From assembly GCA_001244265.2 (NCBI GenBank), contig CDLV01000013.1:186001-250000 (forward strand): a stretch of 64,000 bases of DNA, in the 5' to 3' direction. The translations under genes were made by a program, and so were the position numbers. Below are positions 3,192 to 41,165 of this stretch, piece after piece. The notes beneath the pieces are model-generated. The model searched no databases, was not told where the DNA came from, and saw nothing but the letters and a program-made list of their open reading frames with translations. The stretch comes from Microbotryum violaceum (taxonomy: Eukaryota). Every line of letters starts with the position of its first letter. Position 1 is the stretch's first letter.

Positions 3192-6049
3192 GTTGGAAAA
3201 CTCTTCTGCGACAATTGAGCGGTGAAGTCCAACTTCACGACACGCGACACAAACGAGTTACAGACAGAGAGTCAGAGAGGTTTATGTCTGTTGAGTGCCC
3301 GGGCCGTCAACACGCCGACAAAACTAGGGACAAAAAACGAGACGAGCGCGCCAGTTGGTCCTGCCCGGGCACCTCGATAGTACGCTCCGGGGCGGACAGG
3401 ATATTACAGGTAATGTAGGGCTTTTATGGGGGTCTTTGCGGGCTCTATCATGCTCTACTAGACTTGAATAGTATGCATACGGTAAGGGAGGATGATACAT
3501 GCAGATTAGCGGGAGCTGTAGTCATTTCTTCTTTTTTTCGGGACGTTACCGCACATCCGTTGGCGTGGAGTACGCCTTACGCTCTGCCTATAGTGGGGCG
3601 TACTCCGAGGCAAGTACGCCCGGGGCGTACGTACCAAAACTTCGGAAAGCGTTCATTGCTGCCACTACACCTACCTATGGCATCTCCACCTGATGCCCCA
3701 ACGCCCAGCATTATCTCTTTCAAATTCGAACACAAGCCGAGAGCGCGAAGTGGGTCAACCCACTAATTCCTAATCACGTTCAGAGCGCCATTCCAAAGTC
3801 GGATCATGTTGCACTTTAGAGTGGAAGCGGCTTCGAAAACTCGCGGTCCCCTCAATCTAGTGCAGAGTATCGAACATGTGGCAGTGGCAGTCACCAGGTC
3901 GCCGATTGGCAAGGTGAGCACCATCAGAACGACGGAGCTCCAGGCGACCTCCTCTGTGCGACCGCCTGCTGTTCGACCGGTGCGGGCAGCAACGTTGCAC
4001 GACAAGTATACTCACCGTTATTAAGTAATAGGTTGCAAGGCCGAATCGGGAGATGATGTCCCTTAAACCATCGCGAGGGTGATCGTGCAGTGATGGGCTT
4101 GGGGTCAGGATGGGTCCGAGCACCACCAGCGGATCAAAGACGGCGGTCCCGCCCGATCAACGACGAACAAGCAAGAGCAGGACAAGCGAGCAAGTGGGAA
4201 GAAAAGCACTCACGGGTCGGGAGGTAACTACTCTGGTTGAATTATCATCACCAGTCATGAGGAACAGGTATTTCCAAAATTGTCGCGTTCGCTAGGCCCA
4301 AAGTGCCAACTGGCCAGGCCGATGAATAAGAAAGAACAACAGAAGAAGGGGTATGCGAGGTCGTCGCTGACTTGGAGGTGGGCGAAGCGTGCTGAGTCCT
4401 ATCAAGGACGCCACTGCCTCTGATCTTCGCCACCCCTGCCGAGCACCGAGCGCGGCGTGGCGCGGATCTGAAGCGAAAGCGCGGACAGGGGACCGTTCAC
4501 CACACAGCGAGGACGACGAGCCACCCCTCGGAAAGACCGAACACGTTGTCGATTGAGCTCGGTCACGTTTCAGCAGGTAGGGTGAGCTCTGATTATCAAC
4601 CCGGTTATGAGACCGCCACCATCGATACGGTGGCTGTTGCTCCAGCAGCTTTTCTCGCTATCACCTAGATCCACTCGGTACTCCGAGCTCCGTGGCGGCT
4701 TGCCTCAACTTACTGAAGCAACGAGAGGGTCGGTACCCAATTGAATGGATTCAGAGGATCGAAGATGTAATGAGGTAGAGGTTGGAGCTCAATGATCCTT
4801 TTGATCGATTGTGCCTTGGGTCGATGACTCGAGTACCACGCCATGTCCAGCCACCAGCGGTATGACTTTGGGTAGACAGGGAATGAGAATGAGAATTTGA
4901 ATTCCAGCTAGTCTACAAAGAGACGACCCTTTTCGGGCGCTGGACCACAGGGAGACTTCCCCAAATTGGCCATTACTCATCCCGAAAGCGATTTTGGCGC
5001 GGGCGAAAACTGGTATAAAGGGCTCCTGCACCTTCCGCGTTACCAGACCACCGTCCATGCACGGACCATGTCTAAACTCGCCGCCGGACCATCGCCACTC
5101 CTTCGCGATGACAGCCGAATGCAAATCCAGGGGAAAATGTAGTTTGAACTGCCAATCGTTGTCACCTTTTTCCAACGAAAGTGAGGCCATCACTGTGCTC
5201 ACCTCGCTGAGATGATCCCCGGGTAGTCTTATGAAGGGGTTGGCGCCGGAGGAGTTGCCTTACTGCAGCTCTGAACGAGATATTCGGCAGGTGGGGAGAT
5301 GACTACCGAGCGGGGCGTAGGCTGTGGCCTCGAGTGCATATCATCATAAGTCCCATCGATCTCGCTGTTGGAAGTTCTCTTCACACGGACAACAACAAGG
5401 CGTGCTCGACCTTCCAATTTCGAGCGACAAGAATGAATAGGTCGGGGCCGGGCTGCAGCCTGGGCTGGAGAGGGCGGCGGCGGCGGCGACTCGTACCAGG
5501 TGGTTGAAGACGGTTCCGGAGCTCTCGTAAGGTGCAATGCTGCTGTTGTGAACTCTCCTGTTCAGAGAATCATGCAAGGCCTTTTGAACTATAGAGTCGC
5601 AGGAAGGTGCATCTCAAAATTCGGTTCCATGTTTCACATTCTGTCACGCTTCTCGGCCGAGGCTCATCTGGAGAATCGAGATCCTTGTGCAAGCGCATAC
5701 ATCTACCCCAAAGCGAAAGCACGCCATCCGCCGGCGACTGAGCGCAAGCGCGGTACGGCGGCCGCGCCCGTACCCATCAGCGCACTTGTTGCGCGATTGG
5801 TCAGGTCGATGATCTGCGAGTTTTGCTAAAGGAAAGACTAGGTCCCCTCCCTAGCATACCACCTCTCAAATCTGAAGTCGATCCTCTCTCCTTCTCCCTC
5901 ACCTCCTCCACGTCGGTCCCTTTCTCTTCCCTCTCGTTCCACGTGCCACCACTGCACTCGCCGCATCTTCGAGCTGTCGGCGCTCGCCCAGATTTCGTCA
6001 CCGTCACCGAATCGACCGTCGCCGCTCGCCCAACGCAGCCTCTGCCACA

Positions 6050-33639: not shown

Positions 33640-35492
33640 ATGTTCTCCCAAGTCGCCCGCCGCTCCGCCCTCGTCGCCCGTGCTGCAACCGCTTCCACTC
33701 GACGGGTTGTGCCGTCGGCTGCTCGGTCAGTCTGCCCCTCCGCTCCTCCCCGGCTTTCATGCTCGAGTGGTCCACAGTCGACACTTGACGATCGTGGCGC
33801 GTGGACCCCTTTTCACACGAATCTACGCTGATACCCCCCTCTCTCACGTCTATGCAGTGGTTTTGCTACCGAGTCTGAGCTGCCCACGCTGTCGTCGTTG
33901 TACAAGCTCACCGATGAGGAGGAGATGCTCCGTGATGCCGGTCAGTCGACAGTCGACGCCCACACTCCTCGTTGCCGTCGGGTGCGGAGAGCGGGCCGTC
34001 GCGATGGCGTACGACCGCAGGTCCGATCAAGCAACTCGTGAACTGAAACTTTTAGTGTTCGATACACAGTCCGCAAATTCGCCGAAGAGGTTGTCGCACC
34101 CAAGGTCGAGGCGATGGACGAGGCCGAGAAGATGGACCCGGTCATCATCAAGGGTCTCTTCGACCAGGGCGTCAGTCCATGGTTCATAACGTGACTTGGC
34201 ACAGGATCGTATTGACCTTGCTTGTATATCTAAATCGACAGCTCATGGCCATTGAGACCGACCCTGAACTCGGAGGTGCCGGCGCATCCTTTACTTCGGC
34301 CATTTTGGTGATCGAGGAACTCGCCAAGGTCGATCCTTCGGTCTCGGTCTTGTGCGATGTCCACAACACCCTCGTCAACACGATCCTACGCCATTACGCC
34401 ACCCCTGAGCTTCGCGAAAAGTACTTGCCCCAACTTTCGGCCGACAAGCTTGGCTCGTTCTGCCTTTCGGAACCCAATTCGGGTTCGGATGCGTTTGCGC
34501 TCAAGACCACCGCCATCAAGAGTGCGGATGGGTCTCACTACGTTATCAACGGATCAAAGTCATGGATCACCAACTCGGCCGAGGCGGGCCTCTTCCTTGT
34601 CAGTTCCAAATGGCCCCAGCTGGTGGTTTAAACCACTTCAGGGCACTGACTGACCCGAACCGCTCGATGGCACGCACACACTCTCAGGTCTTTGCCACTT
34701 CTGACGCTAGCAAGGGTTACAAGGGTATTTCATGTTTCCTCGTCGAGAAGGAGATGGGTGTCGAGATCGCCAAGAAGGAGAAGAAGCTCGGTATCCGCGC
34801 TTCGTCGACGTGCACGCTCAACTTTGACAATGTCAAGGTCCCCGCCGCCAGCTTGATCGGCGAAGAGGGCAAAGGTTACAAGATTGCGATCGAGATCTTG
34901 AACGAAGGACGAGTCGGTATCGCGGGACAGATGGTCGGACTTGCACAGGGTGCCTTCAACAAGGCCGTGCCGTACACGTTCCAGCGCCAGCAGTTTGGTC
35001 AAGCCGTCGGCTCGTTCCAGGGGATGCAAATGCAGTTTGCCGAGATTGCGACCGAAATCGAGGCCGCACGTTTGTTGACTTACAACGCCGCAAGGCTGAA
35101 GGAGGAGGGACAGCCATTTACCAAGCAGGCTGCTATGGCCAAGTGGTACGCTTCCGTCGTGGCGCAAAAGGCATCCGGTGCGGCTATCGAATGGGCCGGC
35201 GGTGTCGGGTTCACTCGTGAGTTTCGCTCGCTGCTGCATGGGCCGAGACGAGGGGATGGGACCTTACTGATTTTTTTGCATCCATTTCTGCAGGTGAGGT
35301 CGGTATCGAAAAGTTCTGGCGGGATTCCAAGATCGGTGCCATCTACGAAGGCACCTCCAACATCCAACTCCTTACGATCGGTGAGTTCGGCGATAAACGT
35401 CAAGCTGGGGGAATCCAGCAAGTAGAAACTGATCCTCCAGTTCTCTCTTCTCCATCCTACCAGGCAAATTCATCACCAAAGAGCACTCGTAG
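33640..35492 (+). CDS. ACADSB: Mitochondrial short/branched-chain acyl-CoA dehydrogenase
   Basis: Presequence [107 protein letters not shown]. Confidence 0.94.
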
Positions 35493-35855
35493 ATTATTTT
35501 TGTATTGGTCCCGTTTTTGGTTAATATCCCATTGTTACTCCTTTTCCTCGCATCCCATTCAATCTCGCTGTGCGAGCGCCTGGGTCTGGAAATCCAGTTG
35601 CTAGCCCTGAGGGGGCGCAAGATCATCAGAATGTTATATGTGAGGACGTTCAGATGTGATGATGGGGATATTCATTCCTCGTGCTCCCGAGTGGCAACCG
35701 CCTCGAGCGGCAAGCGACGGTGTTGGGGTTGGATCTCGCTGGACCGTTCGCATTGCCTCGCATCTCCTCGCATTTCCATTTGGCTCTTATCCCCACCGCG
35801 CTCAAGCCGCTATCCTCCTTTCCTGCTCCTTCTCAAACCATCTGATCACGGCAAC

Positions 35856-38694
35856 ATGAGCGATTCTACGGCCAACACAACCGTCACCAGTACCCCTGCA
35901 AGCTCGGACTTTGGGGATGAGGCTCAGTTGGTACATCCTCCCCTGCTACTTTCACGAGTGTGAAGGCCGCGTGAGCCTTTCGCCGCGCCGCTCCGCATCG
36001 GCCTTCGACCTGCCGCGCGTGCACCAGTGATACGCACCGCTCGATCAAGCATAATATAGATGGAACAAGAAATCAAGGGTAATGTAGAGCTTCTTTCGTC
36101 TGTTCTTTCTGCGTCGCATACATCCACAGTCGCGGTCCTCGTTCAGAACGGCGCAGGGGGGTGTTTTTGGAGCGGCCGCTAGCGCCTGATTGGCCCAGCT
36201 GGCGGAAAGCCGTCGCGCGACCGGCGGCTCCACCTCTACGAACTCCTCCTCACACCGCATCCCAGTCCCTTTCCTCTTCATACACATCCGATTCTTCTCG
36301 TCTCTCCAGGGTGAACCCTCCTTTCGGCGGTCCGTCGAAGGTTCTCTGGGCGGTCGGCCACAAGACTCGCCGCTTTCCTGTGGTCGAACCCCTTGCCACG
36401 ACCCCCACATCGCTTTCCCCGTCGCCGAGATCAGGGGAGCTCTTTGGGAGATTCCGAGCAAGCTTGGGATGCAACTTGTCGCTACGGGTGCCTGCTGCAA
36501 CTTCTTCAGTTGGCATATCTTCCCTGGCCTCTTCACGAGGTTAGGGAAATAGTCGATCAGAGAATGGTGAACAGTGCTGAGATCATACCGTCTGAACTTG
36601 AACCGCGTTCGTACGCGCGTAAGAACAGCGATTGCAAGTTTTCTTCATTTCCCCTTTCGGTTTCTCGTTTCTTCGTGTCTCTGGTGTCGAATCCTTGAGG
36701 AGCTCCGGAGCCTTCGTTTTCGTGGGCTCTCTCTTCGGCTGCTCAATGGCGTGCATTTACTTTCCACAACCTGGCGTCGGGGTCTGACCGGCACGACTGA
36801 CGGAATATCATTGGGGCTTGTCTGCGGTTGCTTCGTACGTACGAACCCAGGCTTCGCTCGGGTACAAACAGGTGCTGCATCGAACTTGGCACACTTTTGA
36901 AGCCTTCATGGCTGGGTAGGTCGGCTTCTCCGTTCCTGTTCACTTGGACTTGGACCTTATCCGCAGCGCGCATATTCTTAACAGTTTTGGATCGCTCTAT
37001 GTCGTTGGCGGTGTTCGCTACCTCTTCTCGATCGGTATCTACTCGTTAGTTCCTCTCGTGTCGAGTGAGGTCTCCCTGCCTTTTCACTTCCTGACATACC
37101 TCGCCTTCCACAGTGGTGGACCATTGGCGCTCTGGACGACAATGTTGGCGACCATCGTCTTCATGACGATCACGGCCGCCTCCCTTGCCGAGGTAAGTCT
37201 CGTGTTTGCGCCTTCACGTCCTAAACCAGCTTGACACGATAACCGACTCCGATGTTGACCCTACAGATTTGCTCGTCGCTGCCTCTCAGTGGTAGCATCT
37301 ACGCTTGGGCCGGTGCAGCCGCAGGTCCCAAATACGGCCGGTTCTTCGCCTTCATCGTCGCCTACTGGTCGACGACGGCATGGACGTCCTTCGTCGCGTC
37401 CAACACACAAGGCACGATCAACTACATCCTTACCGAGCTGACCGTTTTCAACCACGCCTTCCCCGGCGGCCTCGACTCGACCAACATCAAGTTCCGGGCC
37501 GTGCAATGGATCTGTGCCGAGATCTTCCTGCTCCTCGCCGTGCTCAGCAACGTGCTGTCGCCAAGGAAGTTCACTTGGGTCTTCAAGGCTTCGGCGGCTA
37601 TCATCGCAATCGATTTCTTCTTGACGGTCATTTGGCTGCCTATCGGCGTGTCCAAAACTTACGGGTTCCAGCCTGCATCCTTCTTGATGACGACATATAA
37701 CGTGAATTGCGCCTGCGCATCCATGCTATTCCTGACCTCAGTAACTGACTCCTAGACGCGCTCGTGTCCTTCTCTATCACAGGGAACGGGCGCCTCGTCT
37801 GCGTGGAACTACATCCTGGCTTTCCTGTCATCCTCGGGCGTGCTGACCGGATTCGACGCTTCTGGACACATCGGGGAAGAGACCAAGAACGCATCGCTCG
37901 CCAATGCTCGCGGCATCTTCTGGTCGGCCACGTTCTCAGGTTTGCTCGCATTCCCTCTCCTCATCTTGTTTCTCTTCTGTTCTCCTCCTCTCGACACCTT
38001 GTTCGCGATCGAAGCTCCCCAGCCTTTCGTCCTCATCTACACGCTCGCGCTTGGTAAGGGAGGCCAAATGATCATGACGCTCGTAGCTACGGTCGGCCTC
38101 TTTGTCAACACCAGCTTGGCTATTCTCGCCGCCAGTCGTCTCGTCTTTGGTATCGCTCGAGACGGCGTGTTGCCCGGCTCGAGTTGGATCGGCAAAGTCG
38201 ATCGCAGTGGACAACCCCAGAATGCGATCATATTTGTCGGTAGCATCGCCGCGGTCCTGCTCTGCACGATCTTGCCCTCCCAGGTCGCATTCACGAGTCT
38301 GATCAGTGCATCCGGTCTACCCACGATCGCTGCTTATGCTTTGATCCCGATTTTGCGCCTGCTCTTCACCCGACACGAGTTCAGAACGGCCAAGTGGTCG
38401 AACGGGCGTTTCTCGGAGCTCTTCTGCCTCATCACGGGCATCTGGAACCTGTTCCTGATCACCGTCCTGGTTTCGCCTTACGAGTGGCCCGTCACGGCGC
38501 AAAACTTCAACTTTTCGAGCGTGATCTTTGGAGCCGTCACCTTGCTCGCGATCTTGACCTGGTGGTTCGCCCCGGAGGAACGATGGCTCAGTCACCGCGA
38601 CCTCCTCAAGATCATCGACGGCACACATCAGCAGCAGCAGACGGCGACGGTCGACGATCATGCTTCAATCCCCAAGAAAGGACTGTCGGAGTGA
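35856..38694 (+). CDS. APC-superfamily (GABA/polyamine/choline-type) permease; inferred Thi9-like thiamine or precursor transporter
   Basis: Exon 1 (35856-35930) joined to 36851 gives DEAQL|ASLGYKQVLHR. Also SLAE|ICSSLPLSGSIYAWA, GFDASGHIGEETKNAS, LAASRLVFGIARDGVLP and YEWPVTAQNFNF. Substrate inferred only from the intronic TPP aptamer. Confidence 0.9.
36473..36640 (+). ncRNA. TPP (thi-box) riboswitch aptamer in intron 1 of the APC permease
   Basis: P1 AACTTG-TCGCT (36473-83)/AGCGA-ttg-CAAGTT (36627-40). P2 ACGG (36484-87)/CCGT (36588-91). GGTGC...GCTGAGA.CATAC motif (TGAGA 36578-82). J2/4 TGAA. P4 CTTG/TAAG. P5 CGCG-TTCGTA-CGCG followed by the CG bulge. Confidence 0.93.
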
Positions 38695-41165
38695 TTATGT
38701 GCCTACCTAGCTTGGTAGATACCCACAATCTTACCCCACTTCTTGGATTCCTGCTCAATTTTTTCCGCGAGGCGTTGTTGAATAAACCCCCCCCCCCCAC
38801 CTTTTCCCCTGTTCAACACGGGCGTTCTAGAAGGCTTTCCGTTTTCGCCTTGCTTCATATTTTTATATTCAGGTGGATCGGTGACTTTTGTGTAGTGCTT
38901 TTGAATACAGAATCACGACGTACCCTATATATAGCCGACGAGTTTTCCTGGTACCGTCGGCGAGTTTTGTTTGGTCGGTTGCGCTATACGCGCGTTCTCG
39001 CATCCCGAGACGCAACGACCAGCTTTCTGATGAGCTTGGCCTCCAATACTCCAGTGCTGCGGCGGGAAGCGCTAGTCACTTGAAGGGACACAGATTCTTA
39101 TTCTCGGGTGCCGACTCGGAGCTCACGGCATCCGCCATTGATTCCGAAGCTAAATGAAAGCGGAACGTCACAGTGAAGCATTTCCTGCAGAGGTGGAGCT
39201 CAGTTGGGAACTTGATAATAACCGCAACGCCCACAAGTCTGGCCTCGGATCCTCGTCCTCCCCTCTTTCCCAACAACTTCAGTTCGAAGGCGCGGGCAGG
39301 AATGCTCGCTTTCGGACGGTCCGCTTTTGGGATCGATCGACGGGTCCGTGCATGCCGAATGCGGTAATAAATTTTGAGCTTCGAACTTCGTCGTAATCGT
39401 CACTTTGCTTGCCTACCCCGGTAGCTCCTTTCTATCACTTCTGAAGCTTGTATATGTGCCCACCACCTGTTTAGGTGCTTCTTTAGGTAGCTCTCGACCA
39501 ATGTTTGCTCAAATTGGCTAGGGCTGCCTTCGTTCAGGAGGGACGTGTACTGTTTCCATAGTGCAACTTCCTAGAGGCTACGATCAGTTTTTCACCAATT
39601 ACCATGTTTTCTGGTTTTTCTTTCTGAGGAGTGGCATCTGCAGCAGGCACGGACACGGTCTTTCTGGCATCATGGTCGGCATGTGCTCGCCTCGCGAAGC
39701 CTTATTAAGCTTGTGCTTAAAACCCGCATGGCCCCGCGGTCGCCGCCGACGGTTCCACCGTCGAAATTGAAGAGGCTCTCCCTGTCGGCTCGGTGCTTTT
39801 TACTACTCAGATCAGTAGTCGTTGGAATGCTCCCAGATTTTTTGTCCAGCCCGGCACTCCCGCCTGCTTGCGGCGGTCGCATCCGAAAAAAAATTGTAAT
39901 CAGGCCCCTAGGCTACGATCGGTGCCGGTGGCCTGGATAAAGTTGTATTGCGGAGCAAGGGCGGCGTCGGACGGCCGCCGATGACGTATATCGAGCGATT
40001 GCACAAAGCTAGTCATAAATATCGTGGCTCCCAACACACCCGACCAAGTTCTCGGGTGTTGGTTGCATTGTTGATACATCGACCCGCTGCAAGAGGGTAG
40101 GGAGGAGGAAAGCGAGCAGGGTAGCACAAATTTAGAGGCACCTTATTCTTGGGTGTTGGGATCTGTGATTGTGCGATGGCATCGCATAGTCGGGTGCAAC
40201 CTTTTGGCGCCGTGGGAATAGGCTTTGATCGTGGCCGACTAGTCTCTTCGAGGCGAAAATGTGAGCATCGCATTGCCGCGCGGCCGCCGGCCGCGCCAAT
40301 ATTGTTTCGATCGACTCGAAGGTCTGTCCCGAAGGCTCGCTACCGCGCTTGTGAGGTGAACACAGCACCGACGCCCTACGACTTGCAAAGGTGAAGCCGC
40401 CTGAAAGGCGTAAAGACGTCGCTCTCACTCTTAGTAGCTCTCAGTCGCCCTCGCTTGAAACGCACGAGCGCCGCCGAGCTCGAGCTCGAGCTCGTCCTTG
40501 TACTTGCCCCTCTTTCATCCTGGGCGTCCCGTTCGCTTCCGCTTCCGCACACGTCTGTTGACTGTTGTGGACCTTTTTGCTGCACCTCTTGGAGAACGCG
40601 ACCACTAGCTCCCGCTTGCATCGGTTGTACTTGGCTCCAGCACGACCTCTCGCCTTCTTTCAGCAGAATTGGTTTGTGTCAGTCTGTAAGGCATATTGCA
40701 CCGACGGACGAGTCGACGCCTTGCGCTAGTGCCTTCGGCTTCGCCTCCGACTCAATTCCCAGCCCCCCCTGGCGCTGGCCCGGGTTGGACCTGATTAACC
40801 CCTGTTCACTAGCACCGCCTCGTCACGCACGGGTCTTCGGCAGAACGGCTACTCCAGCTGATCGACCTCACCTTCCTCCACGTACCTTGGTTCGGCGCTC
40901 GACGCGCAAGGAGTGATCAGTCGGGTATTGGGGAAACCCCTCCCACCCCGTTCCCCTCACCTCCACCCCGCCGAATCTCGTCCCGAGCCACGTCGCGTTC
41001 TCGTCGTCGTCAGGCTCTCGATACCCAGAAGTCATATCCAAGGTCTTGCTTTGCCTCGTGGCATAGCCTTTGCTCAGGATATCCTGGAACGCCGACGACT
41101 CGCCTGGAGTGCCACGCCTGCGATCTCACCCCATAGCTACCGACTTTCCCTCCGACCCTTACAAT

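What the first reader, a model, noticed from the sequence alone, without database searches (positions are those of the whole stretch)
35856..36870. TPP riboswitch in an unusually long first intron of an APC permease: thiamine-controlled splicing of a Thi9-like transporter
Seen: intron 1 (35931-36850, ~920 nt against roughly 50-250 nt for most introns here) contains every element of a TPP aptamer at 36473-36640. The intron interrupts the CDS exactly within the conserved DEAQL|ASLGYKQ motif. Established: fungal TPP riboswitches act through alternative splicing. The experimentally studied ones are Neurospora NMT1, THI4 and the transporter NCU01977, and S. pombe Thi9 is an APC-family thiamine transporter. 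Inference: this 'amino-acid permease' imports thiamine or a precursor and is feedback-repressed by TPP. Comparative surveys have, to my recollection, noted some riboswitch-bearing APC permeases, so the class may not be new, but its mechanism in basidiomycetes appears uncharacterised.
Basis: partly seen in the sequence, partly recalled or inferred. Interest (0 to 1): 0.88.

Follow-up and report, generated by a model that had tools for sequence, protein, structure and literature searches.

The report
Thiamine riboswitch inside a transporter intron
A vitamin-B1-sensing RNA switch sits in the long first intron of a membrane-transporter gene of an anther-smut fungus and probably turns the gene off by redirecting splicing; this switch-plus-transporter pairing is real but already known from surveys of fungal genomes.

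Summary
A full-length TPP aptamer lies at 36474-36643 (+): RF00059 41.3 bits, E 1.1e-5, below Rfam's 54.3-bit cut-off. It sits in a 920-nt intron (35931-36850) that splits ...DEAQL|ASLGYKQ... of a 541-aa APC permease. The gene is 99% identical to a Microbotryum silenes-dioicae protein.

The same aptamer lies upstream, on the gene's strand, in 35 of 40 related metagenomic loci that have enough upstream DNA. Covariation is strong: 16 of 21 pairs change on both sides, and 0 of 500 shuffles reach the observed values.

Spliced contigs from two public runs use a second donor at 36079 joined to the same acceptor. That isoform stops after 35 codons. The layout of first donor, in-frame stop, second donor and aptamer recurs in 22 of 32 distinct loci.

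The most likely reading is a TPP-repressed splicing switch on a Thi9-type thiamine importer. TPP dependence, use of the first donor and the substrate were not tested.

The class is in print: riboswitch-bearing amino-acid-transporter or THI9 genes in Basidiomycota (PMC5882874, PMC5997356, PMC11683625). This is therefore a new member of a known kind. A roughly 520-nt anti-aptamer helix over the decoy donor is only a candidate. The scan's earlier notes hold no similar fungal case.

The parts
35856..35930 (+). Exon 1 of the permease: ATG plus 25 codons, ending ...FGDEAQL
   Evidence: Sequence. Homology to the N-termini of P0003 and P0007. The same exon end followed by GT is found in 31 related loci. 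It is not annotated in the two Microbotryum database proteins P0001 and P0002.
35931..35936 (+). S1, the distal (productive) 5' splice site, GTACAT
   Evidence: Inferred from homology and reading frame. No junction contig was seen.
35961..35963 (+). In-frame TGA met when S1 is not used; the peptide ends after 35 residues
   Evidence: An in-frame stop between S1 and the aptamer occurs in 30 of 32 distinct loci.
36060..36062 (+). Only ATG between S1 and S2. In the S2 isoform it opens a 22-codon out-of-frame ORF that ends at TGA 36898-36900
36079..36084 (+). S2, the alternative (decoy) 5' splice site, AGG|GTAATG
   Evidence: Contigs of runs X1 and X2 join 36078 to 36851, a GT..AG skip of 772 nt. 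A strong second donor after the stop is found in 22 of 32 distinct loci.
36074..36116 (+). Candidate alpha region, core 36096-36107. It is complementary to the 3' part of the aptamer and its 3' flank, and it overlaps S2
   Evidence: Duplex search and global MFE. Statistical support is weak.
36474..36643 (+). TPP aptamer. P1 36479-83 / 36627-31. P2 36484-87 and 36489 / 36585 and 36588-91. P3 base 36490-92 / 36575-77, with an 82-nt insert at 36493-36574. J3-2 UGAGAU 36578-83. P4 36597-600 / 36620-23. P5 36604-07 / 36614-17. GCG 36617-19. No P3a
36616..36659 (+). Candidate alpha' (core 36621-36631 = P4 3' strand, junction and P1 3' strand) plus the 3' flank that can pair with S2
36784..36801 (+). 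Two CTGAC motifs (36784-88 and 36797-801). They are likely branch sites, 50-63 nt before the acceptor
   Evidence: That CTRAY is the fungal branch-site consensus is recalled, not tested.
36849..36850 (+). 3' splice site AG, shared by S1 and S2
   Evidence: Joint. The frame is restored.
36851..36915 (+). Exon 2 (ASLGYKQVLHRTW...)
36985..38694 (+). Exons 3-6 (36985-37044, 37114-37192, 37267-37701, 37783-38694 including the stop). Together with exons 1-2 they give a 541-aa APC permease
   Evidence: GT..AG joints. Intact ORF, 70% identical to P0003. PF13520 with E 8.7e-30 on exon 6.

Best explanation
The region is a eukaryote-type TPP riboswitch: long P3, no P3a. It is embedded in the conserved first intron of a Thi9-type APC permease of a Microbotryum species, and it most likely acts as an OFF switch on 5' splice-site choice.

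When TPP is low, the distal donor S1 (35931) is joined to the acceptor at 36850. This gives the 541-aa transporter, which imports thiamine or a close precursor.

When TPP is high and the aptamer is folded, the pre-mRNA is instead spliced from the decoy donor S2 (36079), or left unspliced. The exon-1 frame then runs into TGA 35961-63 after 35 codons. The only other upstream AUG (36060) opens a 22-codon out-of-frame ORF, so no full-length transporter is made.

What is shown: the aptamer and its conservation, its position in the intron, use of S2 in RNA-derived contigs, the premature stop, and recurrence of the S1-stop-S2-aptamer layout in relatives.

What is inferred: TPP binding, the direction of the switch, use of S1, and the substrate.

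A candidate for the coupling is a long-range helix between 36074-36116 and 36616-59. It covers S2, and its inner half competes with P1, P4 and P5. Predicted stability is -32.9 kcal/mol in full, but only -11.3 kcal/mol once the aptamer strands are taken up by the folded aptamer.
For: RF00059 matches full length at E 1.1e-5.

My own model R1 hits the window once in 64 kb. It hits 49 of 80 related permease loci, always on the gene's strand. Among the 40 loci with more than 1500 nt upstream, 35 have the aptamer 674-1799 nt before the large exon.

On 46 distinct aptamers, 86.9% of cells are paired, against 72.2% in shuffles. 16 of 21 pairs change on both sides. 0 of 500 shuffles reach any of the five measures, and slid controls give 29-55% paired. 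The window keeps 26 of 27 conserved columns.

The host gene matches PF13520. It forms an intact 541-aa ORF once the six exons are joined.

Contigs of runs X1 and X2 join 36078 to 36851, GT..AG. The same runs show five further GT..AG skips, so they derive from spliced RNA.

A stop lies 30 nt after S1. An in-frame stop occurs in 30 of 32 distinct loci, and a strong second donor after it in 22 of 32.

In a distant relative, contig L059 carries the S2-type junction when laid against genomic L041. It keeps the stop between S1 and S2 and has the aptamer removed.

Contigs L006 and L031 read ...QL-xLGYKQ... in one 536-aa and one 561-aa ORF. This fits the S1-spliced form.

In the literature, the amino-acid-transporter / THI9 class of fungal TPP riboswitches is described in PMC5882874, PMC5997356 and PMC11683625. 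A two-donor-plus-stop scheme is described as Type III in PMC5882874 (section 7 read). It is seen experimentally in Candida DUR31 (PMC5997356, passages read).
Against: The Rfam score is under the curated cut-off, 41.3 against 54.3.

Nothing here shows that TPP changes the fold or the splicing. The growth conditions of the RNA samples are unknown.

The productive S1 junction rests on homology alone.

The intron is 920 nt. That is far longer than the 200-400 nt given for Type III, and S2 lies 395 nt from the aptamer. A simple local masking of S2 by P4-P5, as in NMT1, therefore does not apply: the P4-P5 5' strand pairs with the S1/S2 region no better than shuffles do (z +0.99).

The long-range helix is weakly supported. 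7 of 300 target shuffles and 15 of 300 query shuffles reach its energy. The fraction reaching it was 0.18 with another choice of segments. Other 44-nt pieces of the intron pair more strongly with the same target, at -39 to -44 kcal/mol. The predicted unpaired probability of S2 does not change when the aptamer is enforced, 0.12 against 0.13.

The substrate is inferred from riboswitch association and from what papers say about Thi9. No Thi9 sequence could be compared.
Confidence: 0.75

Rival explanations
1. The riboswitch works mainly by intron retention, that is, by blocking S1 or the branch/acceptor region when TPP is bound. S2 would then be a constitutive minor donor and not the regulated element.
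For: RNA-derived contigs of X1 and X2 run unspliced across the acceptor, 36702-36879 and 36699-36879. Pieces of the intron (36184-36488) are also present. In Candida parapsilosis DUR31, thiamine raised the unspliced RNA. The authors saw little evidence that the second donor is regulated (PMC5997356, passages read).
Against: The strong second donor placed after an in-frame stop is conserved in 22 of 32 distinct loci. That argues it is selected. Folding with the aptamer enforced changes neither S1, the CTGAC region nor the acceptor in predicted accessibility (the branch coordinates in that call were off by about 10 nt).
Confidence: 0.15
2. The transcripts that carry the S2 junction start inside the annotated intron, near 35950. 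If so, the switch works like a 5'-UTR riboswitch of the NMT1 type: the decoy AUG at 36060 and its 22-codon ORF block translation, and exon 1 belongs to a separately regulated promoter form.
For: The two S2-junction contigs begin at 35953 (X1) and 35964 (X2), with no further 5' letters. The only AUG in 35931-36078 opens an out-of-frame 22-codon ORF. The next in-frame AUG (36908) would give a protein lacking the conserved LGYKQ.LHR segment.
Against: Contigs cannot show RNA starts; the tool says so itself. Exon 1 and its donor are conserved in 31 related loci and in annotated orthologs.
Confidence: 0.07
3. The aptamer is a decaying relic, or a chance match, with no regulatory role in this species.
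For: The score is below Rfam's gathering threshold. One conserved column departs, A at 36624.
Against: 26 of 27 conserved columns are kept, all helices are intact, the model match is full length, and the position is the same as in 35 of 40 relatives. Low Rfam scores are usual for this class: 16 of 20 related loci are below the gathering score. PMC11683625 attributes weak detection to P3 length.
Confidence: 0.03

Closest known systems
Fungal THI9-class TPP riboswitch genes, also called the amino-acid-transporter class. Sources: Moldovan et al. 2018 as summarised in PMC5997356; Mukherjee et al. 2018, PMC5882874; 'TPPsw-AA' in PMC11683625
   Same: A TPP aptamer sits in an intron of an APC / amino-acid-permease-family gene. 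The pairing is reported as widespread or predominant in Basidiomycota, and the gene is predicted to import thiamine. The window shows the same pairing, and so do 35 of 40 related loci.
   Different: Microbotryum is not named in the main text of PMC5882874; the supplements could not be opened. The intron here is 920 nt and S2 lies far from the aptamer. No member of this class has been tested experimentally, according to PMC5997356 ('remain to be experimentally characterized').
Neurospora crassa NCU01977 (DUR31 / urea-transporter family) TPP riboswitch with long-distance alpha-alpha' pairing (Li and Breaker 2013, PMC3597705)
   Same: The intron is long and separates coding exons. There are several 5' splice sites. 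It is an OFF switch. A sequence about 520-530 nt upstream can pair with the 3' shoulder of P1.
   Different: The host gene family differs (APC, not DUR31). The candidate alpha here overlaps the decoy donor S2 and does not lie next to S1. It does not fit the published alpha consensus RGCGGYRRY. Its support here is only thermodynamic and weak.
N. crassa NMT1 and THI4 riboswitches (as described in PMC3597705 and PMC5882874)
   Same: Choice between two 5' splice sites, with the downstream one giving a non-productive mRNA. Eukaryote-type aptamer.
   Different: Those aptamers sit in 5'-UTR introns and use uORFs. P4-P5 masks a donor right next to the aptamer. Here the intron splits the coding sequence, the decoy form carries a premature stop, and P4-P5 shows no special complementarity to either donor.
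Candida parapsilosis DUR31 riboswitch (Donovan et al. 2018, PMC5997356)
   Same: The intron lies in the coding sequence with two donors, then the riboswitch, then one acceptor. A premature stop lies between the donors. Unspliced and partly spliced forms are non-productive.
   Different: Different transporter family and phylum. In that case thiamine mainly raised the unspliced RNA.
Schizosaccharomyces pombe Thi9 thiamine transporter (Vogl et al. 2008, cited in PMC5997356 and PMC12329505; not read)
   Same: A permease of the amino-acid-transporter type that carries thiamine. One database relative of the window's protein (P0056, 53.5% identical) is named 'Thiamine transporter thi9' by its source.
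   Different: According to PMC5997356 the riboswitch is found in Thi9 orthologs of other Taphrinomycotina, Pezizomycotina and Basidiomycetes. Orthology of the window's gene to Thi9 was not tested by sequence here.

Membership tests
TPP riboswitch aptamer (Rfam RF00059) | Significant full-length match to the covariance model | tested here: met
   Model positions 1-105 of 105, E 1.1e-5. It was the only family with E up to 1 in 6 kb.
TPP riboswitch aptamer (Rfam RF00059) | Score at or above Rfam's curated gathering score (54.3 bits) | tested here: not met
   41.3 bits. This is a curated cut-off, not a structural feature. 16 of 20 related riboswitch loci also fail it. PMC5997356 reports the same for one of the three N. 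crassa riboswitches.
TPP riboswitch aptamer (Rfam RF00059) | P1-P2-P3 / P4-P5 architecture supported by covariation | tested here: met
   16 of 21 pairs change on both sides. 86.9% of cells are paired, against 72.2% in shuffles, with 0 of 500 shuffles as high; slid controls give 29-55%. The alignment was fitted to the model, which favours the structure.
TPP riboswitch aptamer (Rfam RF00059) | Conserved ligand-sensing junctions, UGAGA in J3-2 and GCG next to P4 (their roles are recalled from solved structures) | tested here: met
   UGAGAU at 36578-83 and GCG at 36617-19. 26 of 27 conserved columns are kept.
TPP riboswitch aptamer (Rfam RF00059) | Binds TPP | not testable with these tools
   Needs in-line probing or ITC.
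Fungal THI9 / amino-acid-transporter class of TPP riboswitch genes | Host gene is an APC / AA_permease-family transporter, with the aptamer on the sense strand inside the gene | tested here: met
   PF13520 with E 8.7e-30. The aptamer lies in intron 1 on the + strand.
Fungal THI9 / amino-acid-transporter class of TPP riboswitch genes | Orthology to S. pombe Thi9 | not testable with these tools
   No Thi9 sequence could be fetched. The only support is a source-given name on P0056 and the statement in PMC5997356.
Type III splicing riboswitch (Mukherjee 2018, PMC5882874) | Two alternative donors S1 and S2 upstream of the aptamer, and one acceptor just before the next exon | tested here: met
   The S2-acceptor junction is in contigs. 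S1 is placed by homology.
Type III splicing riboswitch (Mukherjee 2018, PMC5882874) | In-frame stop codon between S1 and S2 | tested here: met
   TGA at 35961-63.
Type III splicing riboswitch (Mukherjee 2018, PMC5882874) | Internal intron of 200-400 nt | tested here: not met
   920 nt. In the relatives, the distance from S1 to the aptamer is 78-450 nt, against 543 nt here.
NCU01977-type long-distance riboswitch (Li and Breaker 2013) | An alpha element near the distal donor that pairs with the 3' shoulder of P1, matching consensus RGCGGYRRY | tested here: inconclusive
   Complementary stretches 36096-36107 and 36621-31 exist and appear in the global MFE. They lie at S2, not at S1, do not fit the consensus, and are only marginally better than shuffles. 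Across relatives, 11 of 31 distinct loci have a duplex reached by at most 5% of shuffles, with median z -1.16. Those loci are related to each other.
NCU01977-type long-distance riboswitch (Li and Breaker 2013) | Host gene of the DUR31 / urea-transporter family | tested here: not met
   The host is AA_permease_2.
NMT1/THI4-type riboswitch | P4-P5 nucleotides pair with a nearby second donor; the aptamer sits in a 5'-UTR intron | tested here: not met
   S2 is 395 nt from the aptamer. The P4-P5 5' strand pairs with the donor region no better than shuffles do, z +0.99. The intron interrupts the coding sequence.

The most novel reading that the evidence does not exclude
In Microbotryum the THI9-class switch would combine the two mechanisms known from Neurospora. 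It would use a decoy donor with a premature stop, as in NMT1 and Type III. But the decoy would be controlled from about 520 nt away. An anti-aptamer helix of about 35 bp (36074-36116 with 36616-36659) would lock S2 when TPP is absent. When the aptamer takes back its P1, P4 and P5 strands, the helix would shrink to a weak outer stem of -11 kcal/mol. In addition, the recurring contig boundaries inside the intron may mark further processing of the riboswitch intron: 36184/36186, 36486/36488 and 36699/36702, each beside an AG or GT.
Probability: 0.25. Interest if true: 0.5.

Novelty: new member of a known kind. Interest (0 to 1): 0.3.

Why it matters
It corrects the gene model. Both database proteins of close Microbotryum relatives miss exon 1 and start inside or after the riboswitch intron.

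It gives one of the few pieces of transcript-level evidence, an alternative-donor junction, for the THI9 or amino-acid-transporter class of fungal TPP riboswitches. So far that class rests on genome surveys alone.

It also marks this permease as the likely thiamine importer of an anther-smut fungus.

It does not open a new class of regulation.

Tried and rejected
Whole-genome search for further TPP riboswitches: no genome is held for this window.

RNA runs: no RNA holder is listed. The library type of X1-X4 is a guess by the tool. I treat X1, X2 and X4 as RNA-derived only because their contigs carry six GT..AG skips. X3 runs straight through three introns and says nothing about splicing.

No contig covers exon 1 (35856-35930) or shows the joint 35930-36851 in X1, X2 or X4. 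No contig covers 36079-36183 or 36489-36698. These blanks are no evidence either way. Only contigs were available, not reads, and only one read-laying run was allowed.

Rfam at the gathering score on 20 related loci found only 4. I therefore built my own model.

NMT1-like masking: duplexes of the P1 5'/P2, J3-2 and P4-P5 5' segments with the S1-S2 region were no better than shuffles.

Thi9 orthology: the Atlas search returned only generic 'amino acid permease' clusters. Moldovan 2018 is not held. No route to an S. pombe Thi9 sequence was available, so no tree was made.

Thiamine need of Microbotryum: the search gave nothing on Microbotryum itself. It gave only thiamine-dependent growth of related Aimea yeasts (PMC13082103, passages read).

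Experimental work on a basidiomycete TPP riboswitch: none was found by the searches. Those searches cover the held library only.

Earlier notes of this scan: only bacterial TPP cases, and none on this genome.

Supplementary datasets of PMC5882874 and PMC5997356 list the species and genes of these surveys. They could not be opened and may already include Microbotryum.
Full report
**1. The observation**

A scan of 34000-40000 against all Rfam families gives one match with E up to 1. It is RF00059 (TPP) at 36474-36643 on the + strand, covering model positions 1-105 of 105, at 41.3 bits and E 1.1e-5.

The score is below Rfam's gathering score of 54.3, so the whole-window search at gathering level is empty. 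The alignment shows why. The P3 stem carries 82 extra bases and the P3a hairpin is absent. Both are usual for eukaryotic examples; that is my recollection, and it fits what PMC11683625 says about P3 length and detection.

All helices are present:
- P1: 36479-83 with 36627-31.
- P2: 36484-87 with 36588-91.
- P3 base: 36490-92 with 36575-77.
- P4: 36597-600 with 36620-23.
- P5: 36604-07 with 36614-17.
- Junction motifs: UGAGAU at 36578-83 and GCG at 36617-19.

The 170-nt stretch folds better than 199 of 200 shuffles (z -2.35). The canonical aptamer fold with a long irregular P3 hairpin lies 6.1 kcal/mol above the MFE.

**2. The gene**

Spliced contigs from public runs define four short introns of 69, 69, 74 and 81 nt. 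It is 70% identical to Rhodotorula toruloides P0003 over 532 aligned positions, and 99% and 96% identical to proteins of Microbotryum silenes-dioicae and M. saponariae. The window therefore comes from a Microbotryum species.

Exon 6 matches PF13520 (AA_permease_2) at E 8.7e-30.

Exon 1 ends ...FGDEAQL and exon 2 begins ASLGYKQ. P0003 reads ...YGDEEQLASFGYKQ... across this point.

The two Microbotryum database proteins lack exon 1. One starts at the Met in exon 2, the other at an ATG inside the intron.

**3. Conservation of the pairing**

A protein-guided scan of metagenome contigs returned 80 loci that encode relatives of exon 6. A plain motif search already found the aptamer core upstream in 28 of them.

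I built a covariance model from the window's aptamer plus the four related aptamers that pass Rfam's cut-off. It finds one hit in the whole 64-kb window and hits in 49 of the 80 loci, all on the gene's strand.

Of the 40 loci with more than 1500 nt upstream of the exon-6 match, 36 have a hit. In 35 of them the hit lies 674-1799 nt upstream; in the window the distance is 1141 nt. The exception is L046, where the hit lies downstream. Four loci have none: L033, L044, L051 and L069.

On the 46 distinct aptamers, 86.9% of pair cells are standard pairs, against 72.2% after shuffling. 16 of 21 pairs show changes on both sides. None of 500 shuffles reaches any of the five measures. Sliding the partners drops pairing to 29-55%. 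The caveat is that the alignment was fitted to the model.

The window agrees with 26 of 27 columns that are at least 90% conserved.

An exon ending D[DE]E.QL directly followed by GT lies upstream of the aptamer in 31 loci. The intron position itself is therefore old.

**4. Splicing**

Contigs of runs X1 and X2 (one study) join 36078 to 36851. The same runs carry five more GT..AG skips and leave the small introns uncovered, so I take them to be RNA-derived. The tool itself marks the library type as a guess.

This second donor, S2, lies 148 nt after S1 and 395 nt before the aptamer. If S1 is not used, the exon-1 frame ends at TGA 35961-63 after 35 codons. The only ATG between S1 and S2 (36060) opens a 22-codon out-of-frame ORF.

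The layout recurs. Among 32 distinct loci including the window, 30 have an in-frame stop between S1 and the aptamer. 22 have a strong second donor after that stop, within one mismatch of GTAAGT or matching GTAAYG.

In a distant lineage, contig L059 was laid against genomic L041. It keeps the stretch from S1 to S2 with its stop codon, and then jumps from a GTAACG donor over the aptamer to the exon that starts QLGYKQ. That is an S2-type isoform in a relative.

Contigs L006 and L031 carry a single 536-aa and 561-aa ORF that reads straight through ...QL-xLGYKQ.... This is as expected for S1-spliced mRNA, though an intronless gene is not excluded.

X1 and X2 also hold contigs that run unspliced across the acceptor, and pieces of the intron.

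**5. How it most likely works**

The arrangement matches the 'Type III' scheme predicted by Mukherjee et al. (PMC5882874, section 7 read). It also matches the two-donor-plus-stop intron shown experimentally for Candida DUR31 (PMC5997356, passages read). In that scheme S1 gives the transporter, while S2 or retention gives a truncated product, and TPP favours the latter. I rate this at about 0.75.

The open point is the coupling, because S2 is far from the aptamer. P4-P5 shows no special complementarity to either donor. The best candidate is a long-range helix.
- The stretch 36096-36107 pairs with 36621-31, which is the P4 3' strand, the junction and the whole P1 3' strand.
- The flanks 36074-89, including S2, pair with 36641-59.
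- The helix appears in the unconstrained MFE of exon 1 through exon 2.
- It is worth -32.9 kcal/mol in full, but only -11.3 kcal/mol for the outer part that remains once the aptamer is folded.

This would lock S2 without TPP and loosen it with TPP.

The support is weak:
- 7 of 300 target shuffles and 15 of 300 query shuffles reach its energy.
- Other pieces of the intron pair more strongly with the same target.
- The predicted unpaired probability of S2 does not change, 0.12 against 0.13.
- Across relatives, the 3' part of the aptamer finds its best partner 5-94 nt after S1 in most loci. 11 of 31 distinct loci are at or below the 5% level of shuffles (median z -1.16), but those loci are related to each other.

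I keep this as the novel reading, not as a finding.

**6. Comparison with what is known**

The class is in print.
- Mukherjee 2018 describes TPP-riboswitch-regulated amino-acid-transporter genes as 'widespread in Basidiomycota'.
- A 2024 survey calls TPPsw-AA the predominant group in Basidiomycota.
- Donovan 2018 lists THI9 among five riboswitch gene groups. [quoted passage not shown]

Moldovan 2018 is not held. The supplements that list species could not be opened. Microbotryum is not named in the main text of PMC5882874.

Two searches found no experimental study of a basidiomycete TPP riboswitch in the held library.

Compared with NCU01977 (PMC3597705, sections 13 and 17 read), the intron length and the idea of long-range pairing are alike. 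The host family, the place of alpha and its sequence differ.

**7. Verdict**

The finding is a new member of a known kind.

Its value lies in three things: the corrected gene model, the transcript evidence for a decoy donor in this class, and an unusually long intron that makes a long-range mechanism testable.

**8. Unexplained**

In the RNA-derived runs, contigs inside the intron start at 36184/36186, end at 36486/36488 and start again at 36699/36702. Each boundary lies beside an AG or GT. No contig bridges these points. The S2-junction contigs begin at 35953/35964. Contigs cannot show RNA ends, so this needs reads.

Noticed in passing
window 35856-37200, against database proteins P0001 and P0002: Both annotated Microbotryum orthologs have wrong 5' ends. 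P0001 starts at the Met in exon 2 and reads through two short introns. P0002 starts at an ATG inside the riboswitch intron (about 36749). Neither contains exon 1.
   Followed up: partly
window 36184-36488 and 36699-36879: RNA-derived contigs of three runs cover these intron pieces but not 36079-36183 or 36489-36698. The boundaries recur within 2-3 nt between runs and lie beside AG (36181-82, 36698-99, 36701-02) or GT (36488-89, inside P2 of the aptamer). This may reflect further splice events or a structure-related loss of coverage. No bridging contig was seen.
   Followed up: no
hits (Agaricomycetes proteins of 1150-1811 aa): 44 of the 120 listed hits are annotated as one protein that joins eIF5B/IF-2 domains to the permease. 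These are probably fused gene models of conserved neighbours. The unannotated riboswitch intron and 5' exon may contribute to the error. The search was limited to proteins longer than 532 aa, so the share is biased.
   Followed up: no
L046:7042-7154: In this locus the aptamer match lies about 145 nt downstream of the permease match, not upstream. The permease match is 43% identical. The aptamer may belong to a neighbouring gene.
   Followed up: no
L074 about 4776-4800 and L056 about 4751-4775: A second sequence resembling the P1-P2-P3 5' half of the aptamer lies about 140-170 nt before the aptamer start called by the model. The true P3 insert in these Sporidiobolales-like loci may therefore be about 190 nt, and the model's 5' end may be misplaced. 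Their scores are low, 43.5 and 28.8 bits.
   Followed up: no
window 35221-35616: The upstream + strand gene ends at 35604. It has an 83-nt intron (35381-35463) confirmed by spliced contigs. Its C-terminal peptide looks like an acyl-CoA dehydrogenase; that name is recalled from the motif and was not tested.
   Followed up: no
L033, L044, L051, L069: These four relatives have more than 1500 nt of upstream DNA but no aptamer. They are 39-50% identical to the query and may be riboswitch-free paralogs of the permease.
   Followed up: no
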